Source: a virus. Taken from it: DNA of 11,385 nt. Location of the stretch: the UHGV virus genome UHGV-0346646; one strand, 5' to 3'. Shown piece after piece: positions 1-10,272 of this stretch. Each line of letters starts with the position of its first letter. Position 1 is the first letter of the stretch. Both the position numbers and the translations under genes were made by a program. Below the pieces are notes generated by a model. The model saw nothing but the letters and a program-made list of their open reading frames with translations. It had not been told where the DNA came from and searched no databases.

Positions 1-642
1 CGCTTCCACGGCGTTATTGATTACGCGCTTGCTGAAAGTGGCCCTGTGCTCTGAATAGATCGCCACCATTTCGCGGCTAAGTTCCATTGTGCTGACCGGA
101 CACCATACCCCGCCGCGCCATACGTGAACGATTTCACTTTCAGGATGTACGCAAACGCCATCAAAGCGATCGGCAAGCAGCTGCGCGCGCTCACTGTCCG
201 CCATCTGCGAAAGTTGCGCCTTTTGCTTTACCGGAAGCTCAATGACCAGACCATCAGAAAGATTCTGGCGCTCACGGGCCAGATATTCGCGCCAGTTCTC
301 CACCTTCTGACCGTGCATACCATCAGGGTAAAAATTTGCATCCTGTACGCCTGCCGCCGCCAGCTTCTGGCCAATCGCCTTTATCATTACTGGCGCAAGA
401 TATCCGGCCCTGAATATGCGCACGGATTTTCTGCCTTCCGGCACAATTTGCAGCTTATCCAGTTCTGATAACTGCTGCTCCCCAAGCCACACAGGAGGCT
501 CATTATCTCCGGCCATACGCGCATCATGTTCCTGCCATTGTTTCGCGTGTGCCCAGGCATCACTACCCGCAAAAATAATGACTTCTGTTCCTTTGTGTTT
601 TATGCCGCGTGACTGCTGTTTTACGTTCGGTGCCAGTTTCAT
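1..642 (-). CDS. hypothetical protein, 5-prime part only (gene continues past window start)
   Basis: ATG at 642-640 overlaps the stop of the upstream gene (ATGA). Frame stays open for all 214 codons down to position 1; checked by hand translation (MKLAPNVKQQSRGIKHKGTEVIIFAGSDAWAHAKQW...VWRGGVWCPVSTMELSREMVAIYSEHRATFSKRVINNAVEA). Absent from the ORF track because it has no stop inside the window. Function not recognised. Confidence 0.5.
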   Translation of the reverse strand, partial: MKLAPNVKQQSRGIKHKGTEVIIFAGSDAWAHAKQWQEHDARMAGDNEPPVWLGEQQLSELDKLQIVPEGRKSVRIFRAGYLAPVMIKAIGQKLAAAGVQDANFYPDGMHGQKVENWREYLARERQNLSDGLVIELPVKQKAQLSQMADSERAQLLADRFDGVCVHPESEIVHVWRGGVWCPVSTMELSREMVAIYSEHRATFSKRVINNAVEA

Positions 643-938
643 TTTTTACCCCTGAATCCTTTAATCATGGTTTTCATCTTCTGAATATTGGCGCGTGCTT
701 TCTCCCTGCTGGTGGGCACGTTACGCGGTACGGCCTGCACAAGAGAAAAATCACGGTCGAACTGATAAACAGGCATCACGCAATCATATTCGTAGCCTTC
801 ACGACGGTAGGTTACGCGCCGTTCCTCCACGCCCTTAATCATTACCGTGCCGCCGTACTTATCGCGGTAAATATCACCGCGCATGAATTTAGTGCGAGTT
901 TTGCCACTGGCAGTTAAGCCAGAATATTTAAGTTTCAT
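639..938 (-). CDS. hypothetical protein (99 aa)
   Basis: ATG at 938-936 with GGAGAA upstream; stop overlaps the start of the next minus-strand gene (ATGA at 639-642). Part of a translationally coupled minus-strand operon. No recognisable motif. Confidence 0.5.
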   Translation of the reverse strand: MKLKYSGLTASGKTRTKFMRGDIYRDKYGGTVMIKGVEERRVTYRREGYEYDCVMPVYQFDRDFSLVQAVPRNVPTSREKARANIQKMKTMIKGFRGKK

Positions 939-943
939 TATTT

Positions 944-1177
944 TTATTCTCCGGTGTGGGGCGCTTTATACTGGTCGTGTAATGTCTCTATTTCCTGCAA
1001 CTCATTTATTACAGGCTCAAGAAGCGTTATTAATGCCGTGACAATCCTTGATTTCTGTTTATCACGTTCATTATCTCCAAGCGTTTCAAGACATATGCGC
1101 AATATTTCCAACATATTTTCACTGTGAGAAAGTGCAAGAAATGCGCGGTCTATTGTTTCGTGGTAAATATCACGCAT
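944..1177 (-). CDS. hypothetical protein (77 aa)
   Basis: ATG at 1177-1175 preceded by GGGGA; stop at 944-946 lies 5 nt before the next gene start. Protein-like composition. Confidence 0.5.
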   Translation of the reverse strand: MRDIYHETIDRAFLALSHSENMLEILRICLETLGDNERDKQKSRIVTALITLLEPVINELQEIETLHDQYKAPHTGE

Positions 1178-1178
1178 A

Positions 1179-1613
1179 TTAATCCCCGTCCGTCGTTTTT
1201 CTTAAAATAACCTCTGTCACGAAATCAGCATAATCGGCGGCGATATTCAGTACATCAAGCCCCGTTGATTTATATTCTCTCGTGGAAAGTAAGAAAAAAT
1301 CCGCTCTAATAAGCTCTGGCATTGACGAAAGCGCATCAGCCGCATCATCAGGAACGCCGGAAAATTCCTGTTTCAGGGAATTAAAACGATCATCACGCAT
1401 AACCCCCCCATTTTCACAATCAGCAACAAGAATATTTTTAGCGTCATTCAGCGACCGCGTTGCGATGTATCGGATACATTCCAGGGCGAACTGTGTCCGG
1501 TCTTTCTGTTCTTCTCCCTGCGCAAGCTCTGCCGTGCATTCAATATCAATAAGCGCGTGCATCAGCGTAGTGAGTGCGGCGGCGGCTGCGTCCGGTGTGG
1601 TTTTATTGCACAT
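1179..1613 (-). CDS. hypothetical protein (144 aa from the ATG at 1613; track ORF starts further upstream at 1667)
   Basis: Internal ATG at 1613 is preceded by GGAGGGG at good spacing; the 1667 start has no Shine-Dalgarno. Overlaps the stop of the upstream gene by 11 nt. Function not recognised. Confidence 0.5.
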   Translation of the reverse strand: MCNKTTPDAAAAALTTLMHALIDIECTAELAQGEEQKDRTQFALECIRYIATRSLNDAKNILVADCENGGVMRDDRFNSLKQEFSGVPDDAADALSSMPELIRADFFLLSTREYKSTGLDVLNIAADYADFVTEVILRKTTDGD

Positions 1614-1833
1614 GTACCCCTCCGCATTTTTTTTCGTTAGAAATAAGCGTTCTTCTTTCCTGTTCATCGCTCAGGAATACGCAGACCTCACCGCTAAGGC
1701 GTTTAAGTAAGCCGATGATTGCCCCTGATTCGCTGTCGGTCATCATGCCAGGGTAATCCTCTGCCAGTGCGCAAATAACTTCGATTTGGTGGGCGCGTTC
1801 TGCTGCCTGTTGTAGTGTGATTTCCTGGCTCAT
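1603..1833 (-). CDS. hypothetical protein (76 aa)
   Basis: ATG at 1833-1831 overlaps the stop of the upstream gene (ATGA); GGGGG upstream. Confidence 0.45.
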   Translation of the reverse strand: MSQEITLQQAAERAHQIEVICALAEDYPGMMTDSESGAIIGLLKRLSGEVCVFLSDEQERRTLISNEKKCGGVHVQ

Positions 1834-2030
1834 AAGCCTACCCCCTGACGAATACGGGCAGCAAATACCATCACGCAGCCAGCCGGAGATTGCTGGCGTG
1901 CTTCCTGTTCGCTGGTGGCCTCAATGGTAATCACGCGCGGTTGTGCCGTGCTCAGGGCGATAAAACGCCAGATGTATTTATTCAGGTTGTGCGAGTCCCG
2001 CCCTTGCGGGTGTGTGGTATGATTTAACAT
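1830..2030 (-). CDS. small protein (66 aa), possibly Icd-like; family assignment is tentative
   Basis: ATG at 2030-2028 with GAGG 5-6 nt upstream; first gene of the minus-strand operon, downstream of a strong predicted promoter. It is also the C-terminal 66 codons of the long track ORF 1830..3116, which I consider a read-through artefact. Confidence 0.5.
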   Translation of the reverse strand: MLNHTTHPQGRDSHNLNKYIWRFIALSTAQPRVITIEATSEQEARQQSPAGCVMVFAARIRQGVGL

Positions 2031-2067
2031 AGCTACCTCGATACTTTCGCTATCGTTGGTGGTTAGA

Positions 2068-2100
2068 AGCCCTGCGAGTGGTAACGACACTTGCGGGGCT
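2068..2100. promoter_or_regulatory. 13-bp-arm inverted repeat (AGCCCTGCGAGTG / CACTTGCGGGGCT, 7-nt loop) in the leader of the minus-strand operon
   Basis: Read directly: the arms pair fully if two G-U wobbles are allowed. Sits between the predicted minus-strand promoter and the start at 2030. Confidence 0.4.
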
Positions 2101-2127
2101 TTGCATTTATGCACCTTGATAATCTCA

Positions 2128-2168
2128 AGGTGTAGCCCACTATATGCTTTAGGTGTGGCCCACGTCAA
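2128..2168 (-). promoter_or_regulatory. predicted sigma70 promoter for the minus-strand small-gene operon, overlapped by two direct repeats (AGGTGTAGCCCAC 2128-2140 and AGGTGTGGCCCAC 2151-2163)
   Basis: On the minus strand: -35 TTGACG (2168-2163), 18-bp spacer, -10 TATAGT (2144-2139). The direct repeats overlap the spacer and the start site, as operator sites would. Confidence 0.4.
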
Positions 2169-2170
2169 GG

Positions 2171-2199
2171 GTTTTATTTGTGCTTTTTCTGTGTATACT
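2171..2199 (+). promoter_or_regulatory. possible promoter for the ribbon-helix-helix gene
   Basis: -10 TATACT at 2194-2199; the -35 is weak (GTTTTA region). Divergent from the minus-strand promoter. Confidence 0.3.
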
Positions 2200-2229
2200 G
2201 TCCCCCACCAATCCAACAGAGGAATAGAA

Positions 2230-2409
2230 ATGGCAACGGGTACAACAAACGCAAAATCACAAGCTCTAAAGGCTCGTGTACCACACGAAATAGTAAACGC
2301 CATGGAATCAGTGAAAGAATCAGGCGAAAGCACATCACAATTCATCATTGCGTCAATGCAAGGCGAGATCAAACGCCGCCAGCGCCGCAAGGCCAAAGAG
2401 CAGGAGTAA
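2230..2409 (+). CDS. ribbon-helix-helix (Arc/MetJ/CopG-like) DNA-binding protein, 59 aa
   Basis: ATG at 2230 with AGAGGAA Shine-Dalgarno. Protein MATGTTNAKSQALKARVPHEIVNAMESVKESGESTSQFIIASMQGEIKRRQRRKAKEQE has the strand-helix-helix pattern typical of RHH repressors. Followed by tandem plus-strand terminators. Confidence 0.6.
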   Translation: MATGTTNAKSQALKARVPHEIVNAMESVKESGESTSQFIIASMQGEIKRRQRRKAKEQE

Positions 2410-2466
2410 CCATCACCAGCGCCGTGGTGTGAGTAACTACGGCGCATTGCTATGCAGGACAACACA

Positions 2467-2640
2467 ATGACCGATAAAGAATTGACCAAAACATTATCAC
2501 CGGCACGGAAAAGACGGCGCAGAAAGATAGAGCATGAATCAGAAAGATTCGCGCCATGTGCTTTTGCCCTTGAGCAATTCCTTAAAGAGTACAGGGAAAA
2601 GCGCTCATTGCAGGTATGGCAACGAACTGAACCTGACTGA
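2467..2640 (+). CDS. possible small basic protein (57 aa)
   Basis: ATG at 2467 with a weak AGGA upstream; Lys/Arg-rich (SPARKRRRRK). Lies between the RHH gene and the plus-strand terminators. Weakly supported. Confidence 0.3.
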   Translation: MTDKELTKTLSPARKRRRRKIEHESERFAPCAFALEQFLKEYREKRSLQVWQRTEPD

Positions 2641-2719
2641 TTGCATTGCCCACCAGCCGCAAATGTGGCATTGTTGGCAATGCTCATGCGTTGGGGATAA
2701 CGTGTAGCTTGTGTCGAGG

Positions 2720-2748
2720 GGCCACCGTAGCGGGTGGCCTTTGTTTTG
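2720..2748 (+). terminator. rho-independent terminator
   Basis: Stem GGCCACC / GGTGGCC with loop GTAGCG, followed by TTTGTTTTG. Confidence 0.6.
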
Positions 2749-2843
2749 CCCGTTATTCGGCAATTGTGGCGCTTCTCCACATGGTTGATATAATCCCACT
2801 GCTCAGATTCATTTTTTGCGCAGTAGGTTAATTGTTCACAAAG

Positions 2844-2877
2844 GCGCTCCGGCAACGGGGCGCTTTTTGTTTTTATT
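2844..2877 (+). terminator. rho-independent terminator (second of a tandem pair)
   Basis: Stem GCGCTCCG / CGGGGCGC (one G-U) with loop GCAA, followed by TTTTTGTTTTTATT. Confidence 0.6.
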
Positions 2878-2882
2878 AGTTT

Positions 2883-3116
2883 GTAGAAACCTGACTCAGA
2901 GATAATGCTCATATTCTGATTGCCGTCAGGGGTGTAAGTTAAATTTACTCCCTTTTTATCATCAAACATCTGCAACGCTCTGGCGTTAACAATATTGGTT
3001 TCACTCCCGCCAGTAAGGCCGGAAATAACCGGAATAATTTCGGCAAAATTTTGCAGATTCTGTTTTTCAGGACGAACGAAGCCCCGCCCTTGTTCGGGAG
3101 AATATCCAGTATTCAT
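2883..3116 (-). CDS. BRO-N / antirepressor-like N-terminal domain ORF, probably truncated or degenerate
   Basis: First ~78 codons of track ORF 1830..3116 (…DDKKGVNLTYTPDGNQNMSIISESGFYKLI) resemble the C-terminal half of a BRO-N domain from memory. The similarity ends where the plus-strand terminator at 2844-2877 is encoded; the remaining ~350 codons have Cys/Trp/Arg-rich antisense-like composition. True end unknown. Confidence 0.3.
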
Positions 3117-3168
3117 GGTTAGATCTCTGTATTAGTGGATGGGTGGCGGCTGTGTGCCGCCAGCCTGA

Positions 3169-3357
3169 TTAGTGAACTGCCTCGCAGCTGTCCTTCCATG
3201 CCAGAACTTCGGATAAAGACCAGCCAACGGAACGACCGCCCAGCTTACGCCGTGATGGGAATTGTCCGGCTTTTTCCAGGTGGTACCGACATGAGCGGCT
3301 CAGGCCTGTAAGTTGCTGACATTCTTTTTCACGTATAAAGCGATCTGTGCTTAACAC
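3169..3357 (-). CDS. alpA: AlpA-family (prophage CP4-57-type) transcriptional regulator / excisionase-like HTH protein
   Basis: GTG start at 3357-3355 preceded by GGGGGA. Protein (…QQLTGLSRSCRYHLEKAGQFPSRRKLGGRSVGWSLSEVLAWK) matches the AlpA pattern TG.SR.T.Y…G.FP…KLG.RSVGW..SE…W. Sits next to the integrase, as in P4-like islands. Confidence 0.85.
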   Translation of the reverse strand: MLSTDRFIREKECQQLTGLSRSCRYHLEKAGQFPSRRKLGGRSVGWSLSEVLAWKDSCEAVH

Positions 3358-3640
3358 AATTCCCCCTTTGTTGTTTCTTAAAGAGTCATTGGGTGGATTA
3401 TTGGGTTGGGTTGTGTCGGATTGTGTCAGGGTGTTTGTGGAATGGCAAACACTGGCGGCGGTCGTTTTACAGAAGCAGGGGAAATGAGAATAAAAACTCT
3501 TTTAATTCATTATGATGCAAAGGCATAAAATTTTACTTTTACGCCTTTTTTACATATTTTTAAGAGTGATTCGCCAGTGTATAAAAAAACAGTACACCTA
3601 TAAAAATCAAATGGTTATTACGATGGCTGATTTTTAACCC

Positions 3641-3700
3641 GTTGTTCCATTTTGTTCCTTGTTGTTCGTCGTTGTGTCTCGTTGTTTCACGTTGTCCGCA
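3641..3700. repeat. cluster of short direct repeats (CGTTGTT/CGTTGTC units) between the integrase and alpA
   Basis: Read directly: gttgttccattttgttccttgttgttcgtcgttgtgtctcgttgtttcacgttgtcc. Related TTGTGTC units occur at 3400-3440. Confidence 0.5.
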
Positions 3701-3722
3701 TCCTGAAAAATCGCAAAAAAAA

Positions 3723-4970
3723 TTATATTTCTCTGGCTATTGGCAATGTGGTTACGTTTTCATGTGTTCCCGCCAGTATCCCTAACCGCTCCGTCCACAT
3801 ATCCAGCGCGTCACGTTTCGCATCCAGATAACGGGAATGGTTATAGACTCGTTGCATCCCTGGCATCTGATGACCTGTAAGCTGCTCCACGACGTGAGGA
3901 TCCACGCCTAAATCGTTCAGCATCGTTGTAAAGGTGCGCCGGATGTCATGCAGTGACCAGTGAGGGTGTTTTAGCCTCCTGTGCGCTAATCTGCCGTACT
4001 GCGACACGCTTGTTTCCTGTTTCACTTCCCCCAGCAATAAGCCCGTGTGCCTGTTCTGCTCCACCAGCTGCGTGACGAACGGCAGTATTGCTTCCGGTAT
4101 GGGCCGGAATATTGCCACCTTCGTTTTGCTGTGTTCTTTCGGCACGGTCCAGAGCATTTCGGTAAAATCCCACTCGCTGATCTCCGATAACCTCAGTTCT
4201 ACCGTCCGGCATCCGAAAACAATCAGGAGGCGGATTAGTGCGACGTAGTAAGGGGAAAATATTTTTTTGTCCAGTGCCTGCAATAATTCGCCAAGTTCTT
4301 TGGTGCTTAAGACGCGCTCGCTTATATCCGGTTTTTTCCCAACGTCCGCCACACTCATATCATCAAGAACGTTGCTGATTGCATAGCGCCGCCTCCGGCA
4401 GAACTTAAGCGCCTGTTTGCACGTCTGTAGCAAGAATCCGGCAGTAACAGGCGTTCGCTTTGCCACCTGGTCAAAACAGGCCAGCCAGTGCCGTAGCTCG
4501 CATTTATCCAGCGGCATAGCACCAATGTGCTGTATTACGTGATTATTAAGGCGCTTTTTCAGGGCGGCATAATCCACGCGGTTTTCCTTTGCGTACGACT
4601 CAAGCCAGTAGGTGAGCGCATCGCCAACCGTTACCGGCTTTAACGCTTCCTGTACGGTGTAATTCATTTCATGACGTGGATTTTTCCCCTCTGCCAGCCA
4701 TGCGCGACACTGGGCGGCTTTTTCCCTGGCTGATTTCAGGCTCAGATCAGGATAATTTCCCAGCTTAATGCGTTCCGGTGGTGCCCCCCTTCCCGTTCCG
4801 GCCCTGTAAGTGAAATACCAGGTTAAAAGGCCACTGGTTGAATGCCTGACGCTCAGGTTTCCACCGTCATTAAGAAAGGCTGTTTTTTGGGCGGGTGTGC
4901 CGTTGATTTTCCTCAGCTGTGTATCGCTCAGTTTGTTAAGTGCTCTGCTCATAATTTTGATTCCGGTCAT
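3723..4970 (-). CDS. int: P4-type tyrosine integrase (site-specific recombinase, phage integrase family)
   Basis: Conserved C-terminal catalytic region HDIRRTF…GHQMPGMQRVYNHSRYLD (H-x-x-R and catalytic Tyr context) and an N-terminal arm-binding-type region like P4/CP4-57 integrases. Start is ambiguous: GTG 4973, ATG 4970 or ATG 4952 (MSRALNKLSDTQ…). Confidence 0.9.
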   Translation of the reverse strand: MTGIKIMSRALNKLSDTQLRKINGTPAQKTAFLNDGGNLSVRHSTSGLLTWYFTYRAGTGRGAPPERIKLGNYPDLSLKSAREKAAQCRAWLAEGKNPRHEMNYTVQEALKPVTVGDALTYWLESYAKENRVDYAALKKRLNNHVIQHIGAMPLDKCELRHWLACFDQVAKRTPVTAGFLLQTCKQALKFCRRRRYAISNVLDDMSVADVGKKPDISERVLSTKELGELLQALDKKIFSPYYVALIRLLIVFGCRTVELRLSEISEWDFTEMLWTVPKEHSKTKVAIFRPIPEAILPFVTQLVEQNRHTGLLLGEVKQETSVSQYGRLAHRRLKHPHWSLHDIRRTFTTMLNDLGVDPHVVEQLTGHQMPGMQRVYNHSRYLDAKRDALDMWTERLGILAGTHENVTTLPIAREI

Positions 4971-4972
4971 CA

Positions 4973-5009
4973 CAATTAACTACACCATTAACTACACCGA
5001 TCGTTGCAC
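4973..5009. repeat. direct repeat copy 1 (contains tandem AACTACACC units), immediately upstream of and overlapping the integrase start
   Basis: caattaactacaccattaactacaccgatcgttgcac. A near-identical copy lies 234 bp away at 5207-5242; the flanks share a degenerate ACAACGTG-GAACAA motif. Confidence 0.7.
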
Positions 5010-5206
5010 AAAGGGCTACAACGTGAAACAAGCTGGAACAAGGAAAATCACAAATCTGTTTATAATCAAAAACATAATGAACAACCTGAAACATTATGAA
5101 ACGGCAAAAAACACTAATTGATAAAATATGTCCTTTTATCACTACATCAAGGCAAGCCATTGATTTAATTAAATGATTTGCACTGCAAAAAGTGCTAAAA
5201 ATCGCA

Positions 5207-5242
5207 AATTGACTACACCATTAACTACACCGATCGTTGCAC
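5207..5242. repeat. direct repeat copy 2 of the integrase-upstream repeat
   Basis: aattgactacaccattaactacaccgatcgttgcac; one mismatch against copy 1. Confidence 0.7.
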
Positions 5243-5451
5243 TGTATGAAACAACGTGGAACAAATAGACACAAGAAATATACAGGCGGGTCATCTTTCC
5301 AGGGGGAAGCGCGCCAATTCATGAGGGGCGTTAATGTCGATATGGGGATCCCCATAACGGGGCTACCTGGCTTTTTTCCGGTTAAATGTCAATCAGGCTG
5401 GTGGGTTTTACATACCCTTGATCACCGTAATGATGATCCAGATGTGCGCCT

Positions 5452-5507
5452 TTCCACCAATGGTGGAAAAGCCCACAGCAGGCCGCCCAGCCTCCCCCAA
5501 TGGGGGA
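5452..5507. repeat. pair of related GC-rich palindromes (TTCCACCAATGGTGGAA at 5452-5468; TCCCCCAATGGGGGA at 5493-5507)
   Basis: Read directly; centres 41 bp apart. A third palindrome, ATGGGGATCCCCAT, is at 5342-5355. Candidate protein-binding or recombination core sites in the non-coding junction. Confidence 0.5.
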
Positions 5508-5515
5508 TTGTGGAA

Positions 5516-5684
5516 GAATCAACGGGTTAGGCCTTAATGGGCTGCGTGGTAATTATCAGCATCCAGAATATGACGGGTTATGTTTCCGACCTCTTCAATT
5601 TGAGGTTCCCGAAAATATCAACGGGTTAGGCTGGTTTCCCCGATGTTCGCCGCTGGCGAATTTCGAAAATATCAACCAGTTACC
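5516..5684. repeat. three direct repeats of an ATCAAC(G/C)(G/A)GTTA(G/C)(G/C) unit (5516-5533, 5608-5632, 5662-5684)
   Basis: gaatcaacgggttaggcc; cccgaaaatatcaacgggttaggct; ttcgaaaatatcaaccagttacc. The last copy overlaps the stop of the 93-aa gene. Confidence 0.5.
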
Positions 5685-5961
5685 GCCGCAACCGCTCCGG
5701 CTTCTTCCAGTGGTACGTAATTTTCTCCGTTTCCCGATACAGTGCCACGCGGCGATTGTAGGCCAGCATTTCAAGAACGCGGATCCGTATGTTGCGCATA
5801 TCCACATCATTAAGCTGGATACCATTACGGCGAATCACCTCAGCAACCACACGAACATAATTTTCGGCGGTCACGCTGTCCGGCTGCGTGGTCTGTTCGT
5901 CGGCCTGCTGGCTGATTCCGGCAACGCGGCGGATTAATCGCAGTATTTCGGCTTCTGTCAT
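5680..5961 (-). CDS. hypothetical protein (93 aa), last gene of the packaging-side module
   Basis: ATG at 5961-5959 with GGGGG 5 nt upstream; the track ORF 5680..6159 extends upstream through the cos copy and is not credible there. Protein MTEAEILRLIRRVAGISQQ… has no recognised motif. Confidence 0.5.
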   Translation of the reverse strand: MTEAEILRLIRRVAGISQQADEQTTQPDSVTAENYVRVVAEVIRRNGIQLNDVDMRNIRIRVLEMLAYNRRVALYRETEKITYHWKKPERLRR

Positions 5962-5994
5962 TGTGCCCCCATCGTTCTGATAGTCTGGTGTCGT

Positions 5995-6066
5995 CGGGTC
6001 CTTCCTGGAATTATGGCCCGTTACGGGGCGGCGACCTCGCGCGTTTTCACTATTTATGAAAATTTT
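5995..6066 (+). other. lambda-type cos site, copy 1 (cosN with cohesive-end sequence GGGCGGCGACCT at 6026-6037)
   Basis: gttacgGGGCGGCGACCTcgcgcgttttcactatttatgaaaattttt is near-identical to the lambda genome junction (…GTTACG / GGGCGGCGACCTCGCGGGTTTTCGCTATTTATGAAAATTTTCCGG) as I remember it. Confidence 0.75.
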
Positions 6067-6075
6067 TCGGGATCC

Positions 6076-6172
6076 ATGTCCGGTTTCTCTGCAAGTTAAC
6101 CATATGAAAAATATAAAAACATGCTTTCCATGAACCGGACATGCGCAAAAAACAGACACTAAAACCGGACAT
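6076..6172 (+). promoter_or_regulatory. cosB-like repeats: ATGTCCGGTT (6076-6085, inverted), AT-rich spacer, AACCGGACAT (6134-6143) and AACCGGACAT (6163-6172)
   Basis: One inverted plus two direct 10-bp sites with an A/T-rich stretch between the inverted pair, paralleling lambda cosB (R3 - IHF site I1 - R2 - R1). Lies directly after cosN copy 1. Confidence 0.5.
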
Positions 6173-6240
6173 CGAACCAGTTAACCGAAAGTGTGCACAA
6201 ATCACATGCATTGCTGCGAGTGATTAACAAGTTATCGGCT

Positions 6241-6675
6241 TTACTGTTCTGTATCGGCTGATTGCTCCATGCTGGCACGGCGAACGCTTACGGCATGACG
6301 CCACCCAGCCAGAAAGCCAGCCATTTTATTTCGTGCCTTGCTCACATCTTCCGGTGAATAGCCGTAAATCTGCAAACCTTCATCAAATCGATGTTCTGTT
6401 TCTTCACTGGAGTACTCGTCACGCTCAGATGAAAGCAGCCTGGCAAACATAATTTTTTCCAGCGCACTGGTTTCTACGTGATATCTGATGGCCTCAAGAC
6501 GGCTTTTACCTGAAGACCAAAGCAATGTATGCCCGATGTGATAACCGCCAGACTTTCCGCGATCCGCATTAAGATACGGCATCCCCTGTTTGGTCCATGC
6601 GCGAATAGTGGTTCTGTTAACCTTGAAATGTTCAGCTATTTCCTGCTGACTTACAAAACAAGCTTTATCAATCAT
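6241..6675 (-). CDS. lambda Nu1-like small terminase-type protein (N-terminal winged-HTH DNA-binding domain), 144 aa
   Basis: ATG at 6675. N-terminus VSQQEIAEHFKVNRTTIRAWTKQGMPYLNADRGKSGGYHIGHTLLW aligns by eye with lambda Nu1 KKQLADIFGASIRTIQNWQEQGMPVLRGGGKGNEVLYDSAAVIKW. Shorter than Nu1 (181 aa). Lies about 90 bp downstream (minus strand) of cosN copy 2. Confidence 0.7.
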   Translation of the reverse strand: MIDKACFVSQQEIAEHFKVNRTTIRAWTKQGMPYLNADRGKSGGYHIGHTLLWSSGKSRLEAIRYHVETSALEKIMFARLLSSERDEYSSEETEHRFDEGLQIYGYSPEDVSKARNKMAGFLAGWRHAVSVRRASMEQSADTEQ

Positions 6676-6744
6676 AATGTTACCTTAACTGCATGGTTAA
6701 ATATTAATCAAGTGGTGGTGGTGTCACCTTCACGGAAAAACGTC

Positions 6745-6807
6745 ATAAATAGCGAAAACCCGCGAGGTCGCCGCCCCGTAACGGGCCATAATTCCAGGAA
6801 GGACCCG
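6745..6807 (-). other. lambda-type cos site, copy 2, inverted relative to copy 1 (cohesive-end sequence at 6765-6776 read on the minus strand)
   Basis: Reverse complement reads cgggtccttcctggaattatggcccgttacgGGGCGGCGACCTcgcgggttttcgctatttatg; 47 bp are identical to copy 1 and about 70 bp match with two mismatches. Confidence 0.75.
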
Positions 6808-6808
6808 T

Positions 6809-6830
6809 AAAAAAGCCGGATTTCTCCGGC
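6809..6830 (-). terminator. rho-independent terminator ending the capsid operon
   Basis: Minus-strand hairpin GCCGGA-GAAA-TCCGGC followed by TTTTTT, just after the stop at 6837. Confidence 0.65.
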
Positions 6831-6836
6831 CTTGTC

Positions 6837-7250
6837 TCAGATGGTTTTCAGTATGCGATCGATGTCGCCGTCATCGCCCTGGTTTCTGCCATCGTATGCC
6901 ATGCCAGCTGATACGGCTTGCGGGCTGTGCATGTCCATAAAGTTTTCAAAGGCTGCGGTAAGCTCTGGTGCAACCTTTGGGCGCTCCTGCTCTATGGTCA
7001 TGTTCAGGATTTCACGAGCATTATCGACGCTAATACATGGCACGTTTGCCATTGCACGTAACAGCGGCTGATAGTCTTTATGCTCATGAAGCGCCATAAT
7101 CGCATCAGCGCGCGGCTTGTCCTGCTCTTCCAGTTTGTTTAGTTGATATACGGCCTCATAGGTTGATAAACCTCTGTCAGCCATTGCCCGCGCTTCGGCT
7201 TTAAATTTACTCGCCAGCGGTAGCGTCATGATGCTTTCATTCGTTGCCAT
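6837..7250 (-). CDS. hypothetical protein (137 aa), last gene of the capsid operon; possible scaffold-like or capsid accessory protein (speculative)
   Basis: ATG at 7250 with GGGGG 5 nt upstream; predicted helix-rich and acidic. Function not recognised. Confidence 0.55.
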   Translation of the reverse strand: MATNESIMTLPLASKFKAEARAMADRGLSTYEAVYQLNKLEEQDKPRADAIMALHEHKDYQPLLRAMANVPCISVDNAREILNMTIEQERPKVAPELTAAFENFMDMHSPQAVSAGMAYDGRNQGDDGDIDRILKTI

Positions 7251-7262
7251 CGTTCCCCCTGC

Positions 7263-7598
7263 TTATCGGGCCAGCGGCTGAACGGATACGCCGGAACCCG
7301 CAAAGGCGGCGCATTTTTTCGCATCGGTGTCGACGCTCTCAGGCCAGTTAACGGCGGCAATATTGAATATCCCCGTCTTGTAACACTGTGCTGATTTCTG
7401 CTTTGACGTGTCCACAGGGTACGAGGTCAGATAAACAGCCTTGCCAGATTCCTGACCATCCCACGGCTTAAACTCGCCATTGTCCGCCAGCATCAGCGGG
7501 GTAAATTCCTGAATAACGCCAGCATCAGCGGCAAAATGTACCAGCGTCGTGGCGACCTGCTGACTGCCTGCAAATAACTCAATGTATGGAGTGTCCAT
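7263..7598 (-). CDS. head decoration protein, lambda gpD family
   Basis: TPLMLADNGEFKPWDG…YKTGIFNIAAVNWPES…AKKCAAFAGSGVSV aligns by eye with lambda gpD TPLMLDTSSRKLVAWDG…YKSGTFRYEDVLWPEA…TKKRTAFAGTAISI. Similar length (111 vs 110 aa). GGGGG Shine-Dalgarno. Confidence 0.8.
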   Translation of the reverse strand: MDTPYIELFAGSQQVATTLVHFAADAGVIQEFTPLMLADNGEFKPWDGQESGKAVYLTSYPVDTSKQKSAQCYKTGIFNIAAVNWPESVDTDAKKCAAFAGSGVSVQPLAR

Positions 7599-7609
7599 AG
7601 AATCCCCCG

Positions 7610-8665
7610 TTAACCAATTTTGACGGTAACAAATTTGCGAATATCTGCCGGAACCGGCTGCGGTGCGCTGTGCGTCTGCACGTACTCAATCGCCGGATCG
7701 CCGTCCTCAATCCAGTTTTTCGGGTAAAACATGTTTTGCGTTGCGCCCGTTCTTACTGCGTCCTGATCCATAATCGCACCATAGGCCACCAGCCCTTTAT
7801 TGTTGGTGTTGCCCAGGACAAGCAAATCAGGCTCAAGGAAATATTTTTCTGTGCCGTCGCTGTCAGTGTATTTGCCGGAATAGACGATAAGGGCAATATC
7901 GCCCAGATAGCCTTTAAAGCTCACCACTTCGCCCAGGTTTTTACAGGCCAGCTCTGCGGCGGACTCTGAACCACGGGAAAGATCGTACAGCTCACGGAAT
8001 TTTTTAAAGCTGCGTAACGTTCGCCATACCTCAGCGCCCATAATCATGACGTTTGCGGGGCAACCAGCCTGATCGGCGTATAGTTCGATATCATAGATTG
8101 GATCGTGGGTTTCTTTGTCCTGCTCTGACCATTTTTTCCCGTCGGCCTGCTCTATGATGTTTTTTTCCGGTATCTTCCAGTCGATTTCATAGCGCTCTAT
8201 GCCTTCGCCTTCAATGATGTTTTTTCCGGTCGTTACCGCATTTACCGCCAGCCATTCCACGCGCGCTTTTATGGCGTTTATCTGGCGGCGCATATTGCCA
8301 GTAATCAGGCGCATACGGCGATAGGTAGGGTCGTTAAGCTGTGCCGGATCTTCTCCAGCCATGCGCATGATGGTTTTCGTTGGATCGATTTCGTGCTTTG
8401 GCTTCATGTAGCCAGGTTTAATCGTGCTGGTTTCGTACCCTTTATCGCGCTGAACCTGGCTACCCACCATAGGCGAACAAAACGCCGACATGGTGACTTC
8501 TTCAATGTCCAGGGTATCCAGCATGATGTTTTGCGTGCTGAATGTCGCCACGTTCGGGAAAAACAGCGTGGTAAACAGCGGACTGAATTTAAATTCCGCA
8601 ATATCCCCGCGATTCAGGTACGCAAAAAGCTGGTTAGTGTTAAGTGCCATTGCTTTTACTGTCAT
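7610..8665 (-). CDS. major capsid protein, lambda gpE family
   Basis: 351 aa with FKFSPLFTTLFF, PGYMKPKHE, DPTYRRMR, SFKGYLGDIALIVYSG, YPKNW and GDPAIE motifs matching lambda gpE (FKFDPLFLRLFF, PGYVKPKHE, DPAYRRRR, SYKGMYGDVAIVVYSG, YPKNW, GDPARE) at the same relative positions. Confidence 0.9.
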   Translation of the reverse strand: MTVKAMALNTNQLFAYLNRGDIAEFKFSPLFTTLFFPNVATFSTQNIMLDTLDIEEVTMSAFCSPMVGSQVQRDKGYETSTIKPGYMKPKHEIDPTKTIMRMAGEDPAQLNDPTYRRMRLITGNMRRQINAIKARVEWLAVNAVTTGKNIIEGEGIERYEIDWKIPEKNIIEQADGKKWSEQDKETHDPIYDIELYADQAGCPANVMIMGAEVWRTLRSFKKFRELYDLSRGSESAAELACKNLGEVVSFKGYLGDIALIVYSGKYTDSDGTEKYFLEPDLLVLGNTNNKGLVAYGAIMDQDAVRTGATQNMFYPKNWIEDGDPAIEYVQTHSAPQPVPADIRKFVTVKIG

Positions 8666-8871
8666 TATTCACCCCCGTGAACCTGATTCATACCCAGCGC
8701 CGCGCGTAAATAGGCGCGTACCTGCCAGCCTGTTGACGGCTCAACCATCGCCAGCGGATCAAGTCCTGCCGCAATGCCTGCTTTTACGTTCTGCTGGTGG
8801 CGTTCCTTGAGCGCCTTCACGATGTCGGGGCTTATGTACACCGAAACACCGCCTTTTTTCTCTTCAGCCAT
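8665..8871 (-). CDS. hypothetical protein (68 aa), first gene of the capsid operon
   Basis: ATG at 8871; stop overlaps the capsid gene start by 1 nt (TAATG). Shine-Dalgarno spacing is long (AGAGGA ~12 nt upstream), so the start is uncertain. Confidence 0.45.
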   Translation of the reverse strand: MAEEKKGGVSVYISPDIVKALKERHQQNVKAGIAAGLDPLAMVEPSTGWQVRAYLRAALGMNQVHGGE

Positions 8872-8904
8872 AGTAAGAAATTCCTCTTTGACTTAAAAAA
8901 TCAT

Positions 8905-8953
8905 AACTGGATGTTCATCCAGCTCTGATTATAATCATGATTGCATTTTGTGC
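8905..8953 (-). promoter_or_regulatory. predicted capsid-operon promoter with overlapping palindromes
   Basis: Minus strand: -35 TTGCAC (8953-8948), 16-bp spacer, -10 TATAAT (8931-8926) inside the palindrome GATTATAATC. The perfect inverted repeat CTGGATG-TT-CATCCAG (8905-8920) lies at about +1 to +16. Confidence 0.4.
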
Positions 8954-9036
8954 AATGATGTTGAGTTGCGTTGCAAATTATGAAATGATTATCCCGATCA
9001 TGTGTGTCAGTGCACCAAAAAGCCTCATATGCAAAA

Positions 9037-9073
9037 GCCCGATAAGCCACCTCTGACCTTATCGGGCTTTTTT
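9037..9073. terminator. orphan terminator-like hairpin in the 415-bp intergenic region
   Basis: GCCCGATAAG - 11-nt loop - CTTATCGGGC followed by TTTTTT on the plus strand (AAAA precedes it). No obvious plus-strand gene upstream. Confidence 0.35.
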
Positions 9074-9248
9074 ATCTGCCTGCAAAGATGTCGAACGAAA
9101 ATTAACCACAACCATCATCTTTTTTGCATCAAAACAATTAAAAACAATAAATTACGCTCATGATGATGATGACGATAAAATCACAAAAATGCGCTTTTTT
9201 CCGCGCCTCCCGCCCCGTGTTCAGGCCCACCCCGCCAGGAGGACCCGT

Positions 9249-9271
9249 AAAAAAGCCGGATTGCTCCGGCT
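9249..9271 (-). terminator. rho-independent terminator after the SSB gene
   Basis: Minus-strand hairpin AGCCGGA-GCAA-TCCGGCT followed by TTTTTT. Sequence is near-identical to the terminator module at 6791-6840. Confidence 0.6.
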
Positions 9272-9286
9272 TCTGTCTCTCGTCGC

Positions 9287-9709
9287 TTAAAACGGTATGT
9301 TATCCCCGTACGGATCATCATTCCCCGCCTGTTGTTTTGCCCTGTTCAGCGCGTCAGTAGCCTGGCCCTGTTGACCTTTTTTGCCGCCCAGTCGCGCCGT
9401 TCGCGCACTGATTACACTGTCTGCGATAACCTGCCAGCCCTGCCGCGTTTCTCCGTTCTGCCCAGTCCACTGGCTGATCTGCATGTTACCCGCCACGCTC
9501 AGGAGTTCACCCTTGCGGTGCCTTTCCAGTGCTTCGGCCTGTCTGCCAAATGCCAGGACGGATAACCACATCGTCGCCGTTCCGTCATCTGCCTGGCTGC
9601 ACGGAAGGGGGACCGCCATACGCGCCAGCGTCATCGGTGTGCCCTTGCTGGTCTGTTTTACCTGCGGGTCGTCCACCAGCCGCCCGTAAGCTGCTATCTG
9701 TGCTGTCAT
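9287..9709 (-). CDS. ssb: single-stranded DNA-binding protein (SSB, OB-fold)
   Basis: Aligns by eye with E. coli SSB: G.L..DP.V, W..V..FG..AE, RKG, W.G..G..R. C-terminal acidic tail ends NDDPYGDNIPF (compare SSB …DFDDDIPF). GAGGTGG Shine-Dalgarno. Confidence 0.75.
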   Translation of the reverse strand: MTAQIAAYGRLVDDPQVKQTSKGTPMTLARMAVPLPCSQADDGTATMWLSVLAFGRQAEALERHRKGELLSVAGNMQISQWTGQNGETRQGWQVIADSVISARTARLGGKKGQQGQATDALNRAKQQAGNDDPYGDNIPF

Positions 9710-9765
9710 GATTCCACCTCTCCGGTTTTAACGTTGATGGTTGTTACCTGTTCCGCTTCGGCAAT

Positions 9766-9984
9766 CTACCGCTCTGTCAGCGTGGCAAAATTTGCCGCCG
9801 TCGTGGTCATGAATGCGCTTATCAGTTCGGGATGTGCTTTCGCGTATCCTTCCCCCGCGTGGCGGTCTATCGTTCTGATTGCCACCTTTAAAGCGTGCTC
9901 TGTCATGTCTAACGCGCGATATTTCGGTTCTGTTCTGTCTCTGCGTTTTTTGAGTGATTTATTAAATTTCCCTGAAGTGTGCAT
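9766..9984 (-). CDS. hypothetical small protein (72 aa or shorter from an internal Met)
   Basis: ORF between the origin and ssb; the Shine-Dalgarno is poorly placed, so the start is uncertain. Confidence 0.4.
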   Translation of the reverse strand: MHTSGKFNKSLKKRRDRTEPKYRALDMTEHALKVAIRTIDRHAGEGYAKAHPELISAFMTTTAANFATLTER

Positions 9985-10033
9985 ATTTATTTTTACCCCC
10001 TCGTTTAAAAAGTTTTGAGTTGTGCCTCCCCTT

Positions 10034-10259
10034 GTCTACCTTATCTACCTTAGTGGCCCTCATGCCAGTAATGGCGCGGCTTTCAGCGGGGTAGAGTGCT
10101 TTTATCCACTATCTACCCCGTGTCTACCTCCCTGTCTGATTCAGGTAAAATCAGGTAGAGAGGGTAGATAGTGGGTAGACAGTAAAAAAAGGCTATCTAC
10201 CTAACTTAATGCACTGAATTAAATGTATTTTTCTTTACTCAGGTAGACAGGGTAGACAG
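10034..10259. repeat. iteron cluster, putative replication origin (about 11 copies of GGTAGA(C/G/T)AG in both orientations)
   Basis: TCTACC at 10035, 10044, 10112, 10123 and 10196; GGTAGA at 10089, 10154, 10163, 10174, 10242 and 10251. Immediately downstream of the primase/helicase stop at 10273. Confidence 0.7.
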
Positions 10260-10272
10260 CAATTACAAAAAA

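What the first reader, a model, noticed from the sequence alone, without database searches (positions are those of the whole stretch)
1830..3116. 428-codon track ORF is a composite, not one gene
The frame stays open for 1287 nt, but its middle is antisense to a well-formed plus-strand RHH gene and two plus-strand terminators, and is Cys/Trp/Arg-rich. Only the first ~78 codons (BRO-N-like) and the last 66 codons (own Shine-Dalgarno and ATG at 2030) look real. The BRO-N-like part may be a decayed antirepressor gene.
Basis: partly seen in the sequence, partly recalled or inferred. Interest (0 to 1): 0.35.

Follow-up and report, generated by a model that had tools for sequence, protein, structure and literature searches.

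The report
Conserved read-through frame ending in Icd
The 428-codon frame is a patchwork whose middle does not look like a protein, but relatives keep it free of stop codons, as in satellite phage P4, where ribosomes reading the matching frame (eta/kil) stop transcription ending early; here the frame also runs antisense over a likely repressor gene.

Summary
The window is an excised, circularised copy of the E. coli CFT073 satellite island EcCICFT073. The frame 1830..3116(-) is open. It ends in a 66-aa Icd-like gene. It runs antisense to a YlcI/YnfO gene, a second small gene and two terminators. It carries a 35-codon remnant of a 192-aa Bro antirepressor.

The conclusion "not one gene" is only half right. 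In 80 loci chosen only by their Icd match, the Icd frame usually has 0-1 stops between alpA and icd, against 10-30 in each other frame. In 29 of 40 distinct alleles one frame covers at least 90% of that interval, whatever its length. Substitutions in the parts that are non-coding on the + strand show no codon periodicity, and AlphaFold folds only the Icd part. So the open frame is kept, not the product.

P4 eta/kil has the same layout, and P4 Kil matches the Icd-like model. The most likely role is translation from the AlpA-driven transcript that prevents premature termination before the replication genes; this is inferred, not shown.

New here: the YlcI variants co-vary with paired GTG-N5-CAC sites over the icd promoter, so YlcI is probably its repressor.

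The parts
1830..3116 (-). Long read-through frame (eta-like ORF of the island's 'Bro zone'), 428 codons. It runs from 52 nt after the alpA stop to the icd stop.
   Evidence: 0 stops against 30 and 24 in the other minus-strand frames; the frame is kept open in relatives. P4 eta/kil has the same layout.
1830..2030 (-). Nested icd/kil-like gene (66 aa) with its own ATG and a GAGGT Shine-Dalgarno at 2039-2035. Its stop overlaps the ATG of the next gene (ATGA at 1833-1830).
   Evidence: NF033153, E 1.4e-19. RefSeq CDS; 61% of substitutions fall at codon position 3; the only part folded by AlphaFold (pLDDT about 71-76 for residues 379-424).
2031..2135 (-). Predicted leader of the short transcript from the internal promoter. 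It forms three hairpins, and the third partly covers the icd Shine-Dalgarno.
   Evidence: -33.6 kcal/mol, z -3.9; inverted repeats 2067-2080/2088-2101 and 2112-2119/2125-2132.
2139..2168 (-). Internal promoter for icd and the replication genes (counterpart of P4 PLE): TTGACG, 18 nt, TATAGT.
   Evidence: 10 of 12 consensus matches; the 'LT' and 'YS/YT' codons that carry the two hexamers recur in several otherwise divergent alleles.
2130..2163 (.). Two operator-like sites, GTGGGCTACAC (2140-2130) and GTGGGCCACAC (2163-2153) as read on the minus strand. One lies in the promoter spacer next to the -35 and the other overlaps the end of the -10.
   Evidence: 22-nt direct repeat with 23-nt spacing. 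GTG-N5-CAC sits at a fixed offset in most alleles, and its N5 core changes with the YlcI N-terminal variant, also across genera.
2230..2409 (+). YlcI/YnfO-family small protein (59 aa), probably ribbon-helix-helix. It is proposed as the repressor of the icd promoter. It lies antisense inside the long frame.
   Evidence: NF041551, E 7.9e-19; 55 homologues of 52-67 aa, 54 of them across Enterobacterales; pLDDT 89.7 with an extended N-terminus and two helices; sub-threshold hits include five RHH-type families; substitution pattern fits the + frame.
2467..2640 (+). Second small + strand gene (57 aa from ATG 2467, or 62 aa from ATG 2452). It is basic and of unknown function.
   Evidence: RefSeq CDS WP_000130015.1; phrog_21027, E 1.6e-15; 88-96% identity in about 36 of 58 alleles.
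2717..2748 (+). Terminator T1 of the ylcI operon: a GGCCACC/GGTGGCC stem followed by UUUGUUUUG. In the long frame it reads 'GKTKATRYGGPS'.
   Evidence: -18.5 kcal/mol; sequence. On the minus strand the hairpin is not followed by a U-run.
2786..2875 (+). Candidate antisense small-RNA unit: an invariant extended -10 (TGATATAAT, 2786-2794), then a transcript of about 72 nt (roughly 2801-2872) that ends at terminator T2 (2838-2870 plus a U-run).
   Evidence: T2.: -31.8 kcal/mol, z -5.5; the -10 is invariant in 13 readable unique alleles and the T2 stem is kept with changed bases; no Rfam family matches.
2874..2978 (-). Remnant of a Bro/antirepressor gene (codons 47-81 of the frame).
   Evidence: 90.7% nucleotide identity to the intact 192-aa bro gene of L039; homology ends after 'SESGFYKLI'; antirepressor PHROGs match only residues 44-81. 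Pfam Bro-N E 0.069, profile positions 37-85 of 96.
2979..3116 (-). Start of the frame (MNTGYSPEQGRGFVRP...). This start type is shared with alleles that carry no Bro piece.
   Evidence: MNTGY/MKIEY/MKTGY starts lie 52-57 nt after the alpA stop.
3141..3165 (-). GC-rich hairpin between the alpA stop and the start of the long frame. No U-run follows it.
   Evidence: -17.3 kcal/mol, z -3.8; alleles differ by paired changes that keep the stem.
3169..3357 (-). alpA (the Vis-like activator/excisionase). It is the upstream gene whose promoter must read through the long frame.
   Evidence: PF05930, E 9e-18. AlpA activates its own promoter and the island's life cycle (PMC6092414).

Best explanation
The 428-codon frame is the EcCICFT073 counterpart of the nested eta/kil genes of satellite phage P4.

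- Short transcripts start at an internal promoter (2168-2139). They can express only the 66-aa Icd/Kil-like protein and the replication operon behind it.
- That promoter is probably held off by the YlcI-family repressor, which is encoded on the opposite strand inside the frame and would bind the two GTG-N5-CAC sites.
- When a helper phage switches on alpA, transcription from the alpA promoter must cross about 1.1 kb that is antisense to the ylcI cassette before it reaches icd and the primase.
- The uninterrupted frame lets ribosomes follow the polymerase across this stretch. This would prevent premature (Rho-type) termination and unfold the hairpins in the RNA.
- The frame is therefore kept free of stops while the peptide encoded by its middle is irrelevant.
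- The frame was assembled from scraps: an alpA-proximal start, 35 codons of a decayed bro antirepressor, the antisense of two terminators and two small genes, and the promoter region.

Shown here: the frame is conserved; there is no amino-acid-level constraint in the middle; the layout is homologous to P4; the YlcI variants co-vary with the operator sites.

Inferred: that the frame is translated, the anti-termination role, and repression by YlcI.
For: 1. The frame is under selection, not chance.
- Window: 0 stops against 30 and 24 in the other minus-strand frames, and P = 4e-4 that the three + non-coding segments are all open.
- 80 IMG/VR loci picked only by the Icd match: 62 of 76 informative loci have an ATG-started ORF of at least 200 codons ending in Icd.
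- Between alpA and icd the Icd frame has 0-1 stops against 10-30 in each other frame, for intervals of 523-1327 nt.
- In 29 of 40 distinct alleles one frame covers at least 90% of the interval, against 15-39% on average in shuffles.
- In 10 of 15 informative species-level loci from other genera the Icd domain ends an ORF of 274-411 codons.
- In 87 of 150 cluster representatives from 1.84 billion proteins the domain is C-terminal with at least 150 residues upstream.

2. The product is not what is selected.
- Share of substitutions at codon position 3: 0.32, 0.19 and 0.34 in the + non-coding segments against 0.61 in icd.
- Over ylcI the pattern (319/642/989 at positions 1/2/3) is that of the + frame.
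- In the promoter region only 63% of aligned bases are read in the same frame in different alleles.
- AlphaFold gives mean pLDDT 30, with only residues 379-424 confident.

3. Continuous translation seems to be what matters.
- In many alleles the ATG lies 8-14 nt after the alpA stop, behind a strong GGGGAG Shine-Dalgarno.
- In several of the 'broken' alleles (L079, L058, L090) a 300-396-codon ORF ends 20 nt before the icd ATG; others keep an intact bro gene overlapped by the eta-like ORF.
- Some broken copies are at least 97% identical to intact ones, so the breaks are recent.

4. The P4 precedent.
- The P4 frame 8168..8812(-) has 0 stops. Its start overlaps the vis stop. Its last 65 aa (Kil) match NF033153 at E 1.4e-20.
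- PMC10111431, citing Forti et al. 1999, states that eta is coupled to the alpA homologue, contains a constitutive promoter, and that its translation prevents termination.

5. AlpA drives the cycle from its own promoter in this very island (PMC6092414).

6. YlcI and its sites.
- GTG-N5-CAC pairs sit at a fixed position over the promoter.
- The N5 core is specific to the YlcI N-terminal variant in more than 10 classes, and the same pairing recurs across genera.
- This block is the hypervariable part of the region, at 55-78% identity between flanks of 90-99%.
Against: - There are no expression, ribosome-profiling or Rho data for this island. Translation of the frame and the Rho link are carried over from P4.
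- In the window the start codon lies 52 nt after alpA, behind a hairpin and only a weak Shine-Dalgarno (AGAG), so coupling to alpA is less obvious than in other alleles.
- C-over-G richness, a rough mark of Rho loading sites, is only modest: C/G is 1.5-1.7 at 2641-2760.
- About a fifth of sampled loci lack the in-frame fusion to icd.
- 5 of 15 species-level loci have only a 62-100-codon icd ORF, so the long frame is not indispensable.
- The sampled alleles are mosaics that share segments, so the counts are not fully independent.
- The AlphaFold alignment had only 13 rows.
- The promoters are consensus matches only.
Confidence: 0.6

Rival explanations
1. The frame is kept open because it must be translated, but not in order to block Rho. 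Ribosomes might instead protect the long sense RNA from pairing with the convergent ylcI/small-RNA transcripts and from cleavage. They might melt the T1/T2 hairpins on the sense RNA. Or they might deliver ribosomes to icd, whose Shine-Dalgarno is partly buried.
For: The evidence for a conserved frame without a conserved product is the same as for the main explanation. The frame overlaps two convergent transcription units and at least three strong hairpins. The icd Shine-Dalgarno is partly paired in the predicted leader. The rut-like signal is weak.
Against: In P4, polarity caused by nonsense codons in eta, and its relief by suppression, were tied to a Rho-dependent site (Forti et al. 1999; the paper could not be read here, so this detail is from my own knowledge; PMC10111431 section 20 cites it for the statement that Eta translation prevents termination). 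P4 has the same layout without any antisense protein genes. So antisense protection cannot be the general reason.
Confidence: 0.2
2. The whole 428-aa product is a working, fast-evolving 'Bro network'/Eta-type protein. For example, it could be a longer form of Icd with a different activity or localisation.
For: The ORF is kept. PMC10111431 treats such genes as domain-swapping Bro-network proteins. PGAP names the 425-aa forms as Icd-like proteins. The first roughly 16 residues are similar across several start types.
Against: The segments not constrained by the other strand show no codon periodicity. Homologous bases are read in different frames in different alleles. The middle is replaced by unrelated sequence in other genera. 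pLDDT is below 50 for residues 1-378. The Bro piece is 35 of 192 residues and falls below the Pfam threshold. Much of the 'protein' is the mirror image of terminators, a promoter and two real genes.
Confidence: 0.15
3. One reading: the long frame is an accidental or 'shadow' ORF formed by juxtaposing a dead bro gene, antisense genes and icd, with no selective value.
For: Codon usage, composition and structure prediction of the middle are not protein-like. Over ylcI and the second small gene an open antisense frame is not improbable given their protein sequences (P = 0.45 and 0.80). RefSeq complete genomes annotate only the small genes.
Against: The + non-coding 483 nt are all open in 0.04% of shuffles. 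The same property recurs in 29 of 40 distinct alleles with intervals of 523-1327 nt, in other genera and in P4. The frame always crosses ylcI in the one phase where the wobble positions of the two strands coincide, in 42 of 42 alleles whose ORF spans ylcI.
Confidence: 0.03

Closest known systems
Nested eta/kil genes of satellite phage P4 (Forti et al. 1999, J Bacteriol 181:5225, as summarised in PMC10111431)
   Same: - A long frame starts at the end of the AlpA-family gene (vis).
- It contains the early promoter.
- It ends in a roughly 65-aa Kil/Icd-like protein with its own start.
- The primase operon follows it.
- P4 Kil and the window's Icd match the same NCBIfam model (E 1.4e-20 and 1.4e-19).
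- Both frames are stop-free, unlike the two other frames of the same strand.
   Different: - The P4 frame is 199 aa. Its interior carries the same-strand immunity RNA CI and its target seqA (Rfam C4 and isrK; Pfam Phage_ASH over residues 37-161).
- The window has none of these.
- Instead it holds a convergent protein-coding cassette (ylcI, a 57-aa gene, two terminators and a possible small RNA) plus a Bro remnant, and is twice as long.
- The start is 52 nt from alpA rather than overlapping it.
'Bro zone' genes of Gram-negative PICIs (PMC10111431)
   Same: The position between the Integration zone (int, alpA) and the Replication zone is the same. The gene content is mosaic and domain-swapping, and some relatives carry a real Bro-N domain fused to the same frame (P0067: Bro-N E 2e-14).
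   Different: That paper treats these as protein genes and mentions immunity RNAs. It does not describe an antisense YlcI cassette, a lack of amino-acid constraint, or operator co-variation. Here the Bro part is a 35-codon relic.
Phage P1 immI operon (c4 RNA - icd - ant)
   Same: An Icd-family small protein leads an operon that is kept off by an immunity function encoded next to it. (This comparison rests on my own knowledge of P1.)
   Different: P1 uses the C4 antisense RNA and has no long upstream frame. The window has no C4 match, and its downstream genes are for replication, not an antirepressor.
Ribbon-helix-helix repressors with tandem operators (Arc/Mnt/CopG type)
   Same: YlcI is small and has a predicted strand-helix-helix layout. 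The variable residues lie in the N-terminal strand. It is paired with two short palindromic sites over a promoter.
   Different: No RHH family reaches its threshold, and Foldseek finds nothing. DNA binding is untested.

Membership tests
Icd-like / P4 Kil family (NCBIfam NF033153) | Match to the family model above its curated cut-off (25 bits) | tested here: met
   69.9 bits, E 1.4e-19, residues 19-62 of the 66-aa product, which are residues 381-424 of the 428-aa ORF.
Icd-like / P4 Kil family (NCBIfam NF033153) | Inhibits cell division or kills the cell when expressed | not testable with these tools
   This needs expression in E. coli.
P4 eta/kil-type nested read-through ORF | The Kil/Icd-like protein is the in-frame C-terminal part of a much longer ORF and has its own start and Shine-Dalgarno | tested here: met
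   ATG at 2030 with GAGGT at 2039-2035.
P4 eta/kil-type nested read-through ORF | The long ORF begins at or just after the vis/alpA gene | tested here: met
   The start is 52 nt after the alpA stop in the window, 8-57 nt in 14 further start types (one more, L072, overlaps the alpA end), and overlaps the vis stop in P4.
P4 eta/kil-type nested read-through ORF | A promoter inside the long ORF, upstream of kil | tested here: inconclusive
   TTGACG-18-TATAGT at 2168-2139 matches 10 of 12 consensus positions, and the hexamers recur in divergent alleles. No transcript data are available.
P4 eta/kil-type nested read-through ORF | The open frame is maintained in relatives | tested here: met
P4 eta/kil-type nested read-through ORF | Translation of the long frame prevents Rho-dependent termination of transcripts from the upstream promoter | not testable with these tools
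   This needs nonsense mutants with and without Rho inhibition. Only a modest C-rich patch is seen.
P4 eta/kil-type nested read-through ORF | The interior carries the CI immunity RNA and seqA (Rfam C4/isrK; Pfam Phage_ASH) | tested here: not met
   No Rfam hit at E <= 1 in the window and no PF10554. The P4 control is positive.
BRO-N domain proteins (Pfam PF02498) / phage antirepressors | Match to the domain model above the gathering score (25.6 bits) over most of the profile | tested here: not met
   14.2 bits, E 0.069, profile positions 37-85 of 96; only codons 47-81 derive from a 192-aa bro gene. The relative P0067 passes at E 2e-14.
YlcI/YnfO family (NCBIfam NF041551), + strand gene | Match above the cut-off (30 bits) | tested here: met
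   67.4 bits, E 7.9e-19.
Ribbon-helix-helix DNA-binding proteins, + strand gene | Strand-helix-helix fold recognisable by a family model or by structure comparison | tested here: inconclusive
   The AlphaFold model has pLDDT 89.7, with an extended N-terminus and two helices. Only sub-threshold hits were found; they include five RHH-type families: CB_ParB_C (7 members, best E 3e-4), PSK_trans_fac, Arc, HicB_lk and RHH_5. Foldseek and PDB sequence searches found nothing.
Ribbon-helix-helix DNA-binding proteins, + strand gene | Binds specific operator repeats | not testable with these tools
   The support is indirect: the GTG-N5-CAC cores co-vary with the N-terminal variants.

The most novel reading that the evidence does not exclude
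Many Gram-negative PICIs share a three-part switch that has not been described.

1. A YlcI/YnfO-family ribbon-helix-helix protein is the long-sought repressor. It has allele-specific GTG-N5-CAC operators on the icd/primase promoter, so it would define immunity types.
2. Its gene lies antisense inside a 'ribosome track': a 220-470-codon frame whose only function is to be translated, so that AlpA-driven transcripts survive the crossing.
3. A roughly 72-nt antisense RNA made between the two terminators guards that track against leaky alpA transcription.
Probability: 0.35. Interest if true: 0.65.

Novelty: new variant of a known kind. Interest (0 to 1): 0.5.

Why it matters
- EcCICFT073 is the model Gram-negative phage-inducible island. 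Its founding paper left open whether these islands have a repressor at all (PMC6092414).
- This analysis gives a testable wiring diagram for its switch.
- It offers a clean natural example of an open reading frame that is selected for being read rather than for what it encodes, overlapping a real gene on the other strand in the wobble-on-wobble phase.
- It also explains an annotation conflict. Public records call the same DNA either a 425-aa 'Icd-like protein' or three small genes.
- It warns that Pfam Phage_ASH and several 'Bro network' segments may be translations of regulatory DNA.

Tried and rejected
- **Known RNA families in the window:** an Rfam scan at E <= 1 found no C4, isrK or other relevant family.
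- **ylcI versus CI RNA as alternatives:** I tested whether the ylcI cassette and the CI/C4 RNA exclude each other. Only P4 and one E. albertii locus have C4/isrK, and the other 11 scanned loci with neither a ylcI match nor C4/isrK (of 12 without ylcI) have no Rfam hit at gathering threshold, so no conclusion is possible.
- **P4 by BLAST:** tblastn of Icd against the phage collection missed P4. The relationship appeared only with the NCBIfam model.
- **Forti et al. 1999:** the paper could not be retrieved, so I relied on the summary in PMC10111431. One literature search was wasted on unspecific terms.
- **First locus search:** the first alignment was too divergent for the search for related loci.
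- **Rho loading sites:** a C/G-skew scan gave only a weak signal.
- **RHH fold of YlcI:** Foldseek and PDB sequence searches found nothing.
- **Candidate small RNA:** covariation analysis supported only the terminator stem; the first hairpin shows no compensatory changes.
- **Literature on ylcI:** searches for YlcI/YnfO or ribbon-helix-helix in PICIs found nothing relevant. The 2019 and 2020 EcCICFT073 papers do not discuss this region.
- **Composition as an explanation:** I rejected strand composition as the cause of the stop-free frame, because the two other frames on the same strand carry 24-30 stops.
Full report
**Where the window comes from.** Positions 1500-3500 of the window are 99.9% identical to E. 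coli CFT073. The whole window is a circular permutation of the island between phoQ and roxA. Window 1-5133 matches L001 7501-12634, 5124-9073 matches L001 1173-5123, and 9381-11385 matches L001 5517-7500. The attachment junction therefore lies at about 5124-5133, and the primase gene spans the window ends. This island is EcCICFT073, the model Gram-negative phage-inducible chromosomal island (PMC6092414). On the minus strand the gene order is int (4973-3723), alpA (3357-3169), the ORF in question (3116-1830), four small overlapping or abutting genes, and then the primase.

**Checking the observation.**
- The ORF 1830..3116(-) is 428 codons. It has no stop, while the other two minus-strand frames have 30 and 24.
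- The last 66 codons match the Icd-like model NF033153 (E 1.4e-19). They have a GAGGT Shine-Dalgarno and are the gene RefSeq annotates.
- The + strand gene 2230-2409 matches the YlcI/YnfO family (E 7.9e-19).
- A second + strand gene (2467-2640) is annotated in RefSeq and matches phrog_21027.
- Both + strand terminators fold strongly and are followed by U-runs: T1 at 2717-2742 (-18.5 kcal/mol) and T2 at 2838-2870 (-20.5 kcal/mol, z -5.2).
- The middle has 5.5% Cys and a codon-usage score near zero. Codons 16-90 and 331-428 score positive.
- AlphaFold, run with 13 homologues, gives mean pLDDT 30. Only residues 379-424, the Icd part, reach about 71-76.

**The Bro piece.** Pfam Bro-N reaches only 14.2 bits (cut-off 25.6) on residues 52-91, which correspond to profile positions 37-85. 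Related islands carry an intact 192-aa bro gene that matches the antirepressor family phrog_2593 at E 9e-82. The window shares 90.7% nucleotide identity with that gene only over codons 47-81 (2874-2978). Homology stops after 'SESGFYKLI', directly next to terminator T2. The first 46 codons are not Bro-derived. They belong to a start type (MNTGY/MKIEY...) that also occurs in alleles with no Bro piece. So 'decayed antirepressor' is correct, but the relic is 35 codons long.

**The surprise.** A protein search returned 1,984 hits. Most of the best 120 cover 99-100% of the 428 aa, at 58-99% identity and lengths of about 360-530 aa, and many are named 'Icd-like protein' by PGAP. In the alignment the two ends and the blocks mirroring the terminators are conserved. 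The stretch opposite the ylcI N-terminus and the promoter region is hypervariable, with large insertions, yet it stays open.

Because called proteins are a biased sample, I collected loci by the Icd domain alone.
- *Species-level loci.* Of 16 loci from other species, 15 are informative, and in 10 of these the domain ends an ORF of 274-411 codons. The genera include Klebsiella, Enterobacter, Rahnella, Pantoea and others.
- *IMG/VR loci.* Of 80 loci, 76 are informative, and 62 of these have an ATG-started ORF of at least 200 codons ending in Icd.
- *Stops between alpA and icd.* The Icd frame has 0-1 stops and each other frame 10-30, for interval lengths of 523 to 1327 nt.
- *Distinct alleles.* After clustering at 97% identity, 29 of 40 distinct alleles with alpA upstream have one sense frame covering at least 90% of the interval. 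Shuffled sequences average 15-39%.
- *Exceptions.* Some keep an intact bro gene overlapped by the eta-like ORF. In others the long ORF has slipped into another frame; in several it ends 20 nt before the icd ATG. Some are at least 97% identical to intact alleles, so the breaks are recent.
- *Whole-database view.* Among 150 representatives from 1.84 billion proteins, the Icd stretch is C-terminal in 130, and 87 have at least 150 residues upstream. This count is inflated, because the variable upstream parts split the clusters.

**What is and is not selected.** I compared the window with 54 unique long-ORF alleles and counted substitutions at codon positions 1/2/3 of the long frame.

| Segment | Substitutions at positions 1/2/3 | Share at position 3 |
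|---|---|---|
| icd | 62/72/213 | 0.61 |
| T1-T2 region | 95/69/78 | 0.32 |
| 2410-2466 spacer | 79/184/62 | 0.19 |
| promoter region | 692/520/627 | 0.34 |
| opposite ylcI | 319/642/989 | 0.51 |

- Only icd shows the periodicity expected of a protein under constraint in this frame.
- In the promoter region only 63% of aligned bases are read in the same frame in different alleles, and most alignment gaps are not multiples of three.
- Opposite ylcI the pattern is the one expected if the + frame is constrained, because position 2 of the long frame is position 1 of ylcI.
- In all 42 alleles whose ORF spans ylcI, the two genes are phased so that their wobble positions coincide. That is also the only sense frame free of stops there.
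- For the window alone, shuffling the three + non-coding segments leaves all of them open in 0.04% of trials. The antisense of ylcI and of the second small gene stays open in 45% and 80% of synonymous recodings.

The frame is therefore maintained by selection against stop codons, with no detectable selection on the peptide of the middle.

**The precedent.**
- In P4 the minus-strand frame 8168-8812 has no stop. Its triple-ATG start overlaps the stop of vis, the AlpA homologue. Its last 65 aa are Kil, which matches the same Icd-like model at E 1.4e-20.
- PMC10111431 (section 'Gene content', citing Forti et al. 1999) states the following. eta contains a constitutive promoter. [quoted passage not shown] The paper also says that Gram-negative PICIs have a 'Bro zone' at this position.
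- In P4 the interior of eta holds the CI RNA and seqA (Rfam C4 and isrK), and Pfam's Phage_ASH family covers exactly that stretch. The window has no such RNA.
- In many PICI alleles the long ORF starts 8-14 nt after the alpA stop, behind a GGGGAG Shine-Dalgarno. In the window type it starts 52 nt downstream, after a conserved GC hairpin.
- In EcCICFT073 AlpA activates its own promoter and is required for induction (PMC6092414).

**What sits inside the frame.**
- The consensus scan finds TTGACG-18-TATAGT at 2168-2139 on the minus strand. This is about 100 nt upstream of icd, and the predicted leader is structured.
- Two 11-nt sites, GTGGGCCACAC and GTGGGCTACAC, lie in the spacer next to the -35 and over the end of the -10.
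- Across alleles a GTG-N5-CAC site sits at the same offset from the ylcI start, usually with a second copy 23-35 nt further on.
- The N5 core changes with the YlcI N-terminal variant. Examples are NAKSQALKARVP with GGCCA, NAKSQTVAARVP with TTCAA, NGKSKKLEARVP with GCTGA, and NAKSKR(I/F)D with TCCGA.
- The same pairings recur in Superficieibacter, E. ruysiae and Pectobacterium.
- This block is the least conserved part of the region, at 55-78% identity between flanks of 90-99%. That is the usual mark of an immunity-specificity module.
- YlcI has 55 homologues of 52-67 aa, 54 of them across Enterobacterales. Its most variable positions (residues 12-14) lie in the N-terminal segment. Its confident model (pLDDT 89.7) has an extended N-terminus and two helices. 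Its sub-threshold Pfam hits include five RHH-type families.
- I conclude that YlcI is probably the repressor of the icd promoter. This is an inference from co-variation, not a demonstrated function.

**Model.**
- In the quiescent island, YlcI keeps the internal promoter off.
- On helper-phage infection, AlpA drives transcription from its own promoter. This transcript runs against the ylcI cassette and must cross 1.1 kb before icd and the replication genes.
- Translation of the stop-free frame keeps the transcript from being terminated.
- Steps shown here: conservation of the frame, absence of peptide constraint, homology of layout with P4, and operator/YlcI co-variation.
- Steps inferred: translation of the frame, the role of Rho, and repression by YlcI.

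**Verdict.**
- In kind this is the known P4 eta/kil arrangement. The variant found here, with an antisense repressor cassette in place of the CI RNA, does not appear in the literature I could search.

Noticed in passing
window 1-11385; junction about 5124-5133: The window is the excised, circular form of the CFT073 phoQ/roxA island, linearised inside the primase gene. The two chromosomal ends of the island meet at about 5124-5133, with a 10-nt overlap. Positions 9074-9380 (the PerC-regulator region in CFT073) do not align to CFT073, and 9381-11385 is only 91% identical.
   Followed up: partly
window 2786-2875 (+): An extended -10 box, TGATATAAT, lies between the two + strand terminators and is invariant in 13 readable unique alleles. 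It would give an RNA of about 72 nt ending at T2, fully antisense to codons about 82-105 of the long frame. This would explain why there are two tandem terminators. No Rfam family matches. Only the terminator stem shows supporting base changes.
   Followed up: partly
window 2130-2163: Paired GTG-N5-CAC sites lie over the icd promoter. Their central five bases co-vary with the N-terminal variant of the divergently encoded YlcI protein, across more than 10 allele classes and several genera. This points to a repressor with immunity types in Gram-negative PICIs.
   Followed up: yes
window 3141-3165 (-): A GC-rich hairpin (-17.3 kcal/mol, z -3.8) lies between the alpA stop and the long ORF's start. 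Alleles differ by paired changes that keep the stem, and no U-run follows. Alleles without it start the ORF 8-14 nt after alpA.
   Followed up: partly
window 2640-2660: The block 'attgcattgcccaccagccg', just after the second small + strand gene, is present in about 43 of 58 alleles at 94% identity. Its translation 'AAGGQ' recurs in the Klebsiella satellite vB_KppS-Ant. Its function is unknown.
   Followed up: no
L002 (phage P4) 8330-8704: The Pfam family Phage_ASH (PF10554) matches residues 37-161 of the P4 eta frame. That is the stretch that encodes the CI RNA and seqA (Rfam C4 at 8420-8507, isrK at 8615-8692). This 'protein family' may therefore largely be a translation of regulatory RNA genes.
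   Followed up: partly
window 4974-5048 and 5207-5281: A 75-nt direct repeat (79% identity) flanks the attachment junction. Each copy begins with a doubled CTACACC motif (CTACACCATTAACTACACC). These are probably integrase arm-type sites.
   Followed up: no
window 5995-6072 and 6730-6807: A 78-nt inverted repeat (91% complementary) brackets the 144-aa gene at 6241-6675.
   Followed up: no
public records: Annotation of this DNA is inconsistent. Many NCBI records call the 421-474-aa ORF 'host cell division inhibitor Icd-like protein'. RefSeq complete genomes annotate a 66-aa icd plus ylcI and a 57-aa gene on the other strand, and nothing over the Bro remnant.
   Followed up: partly
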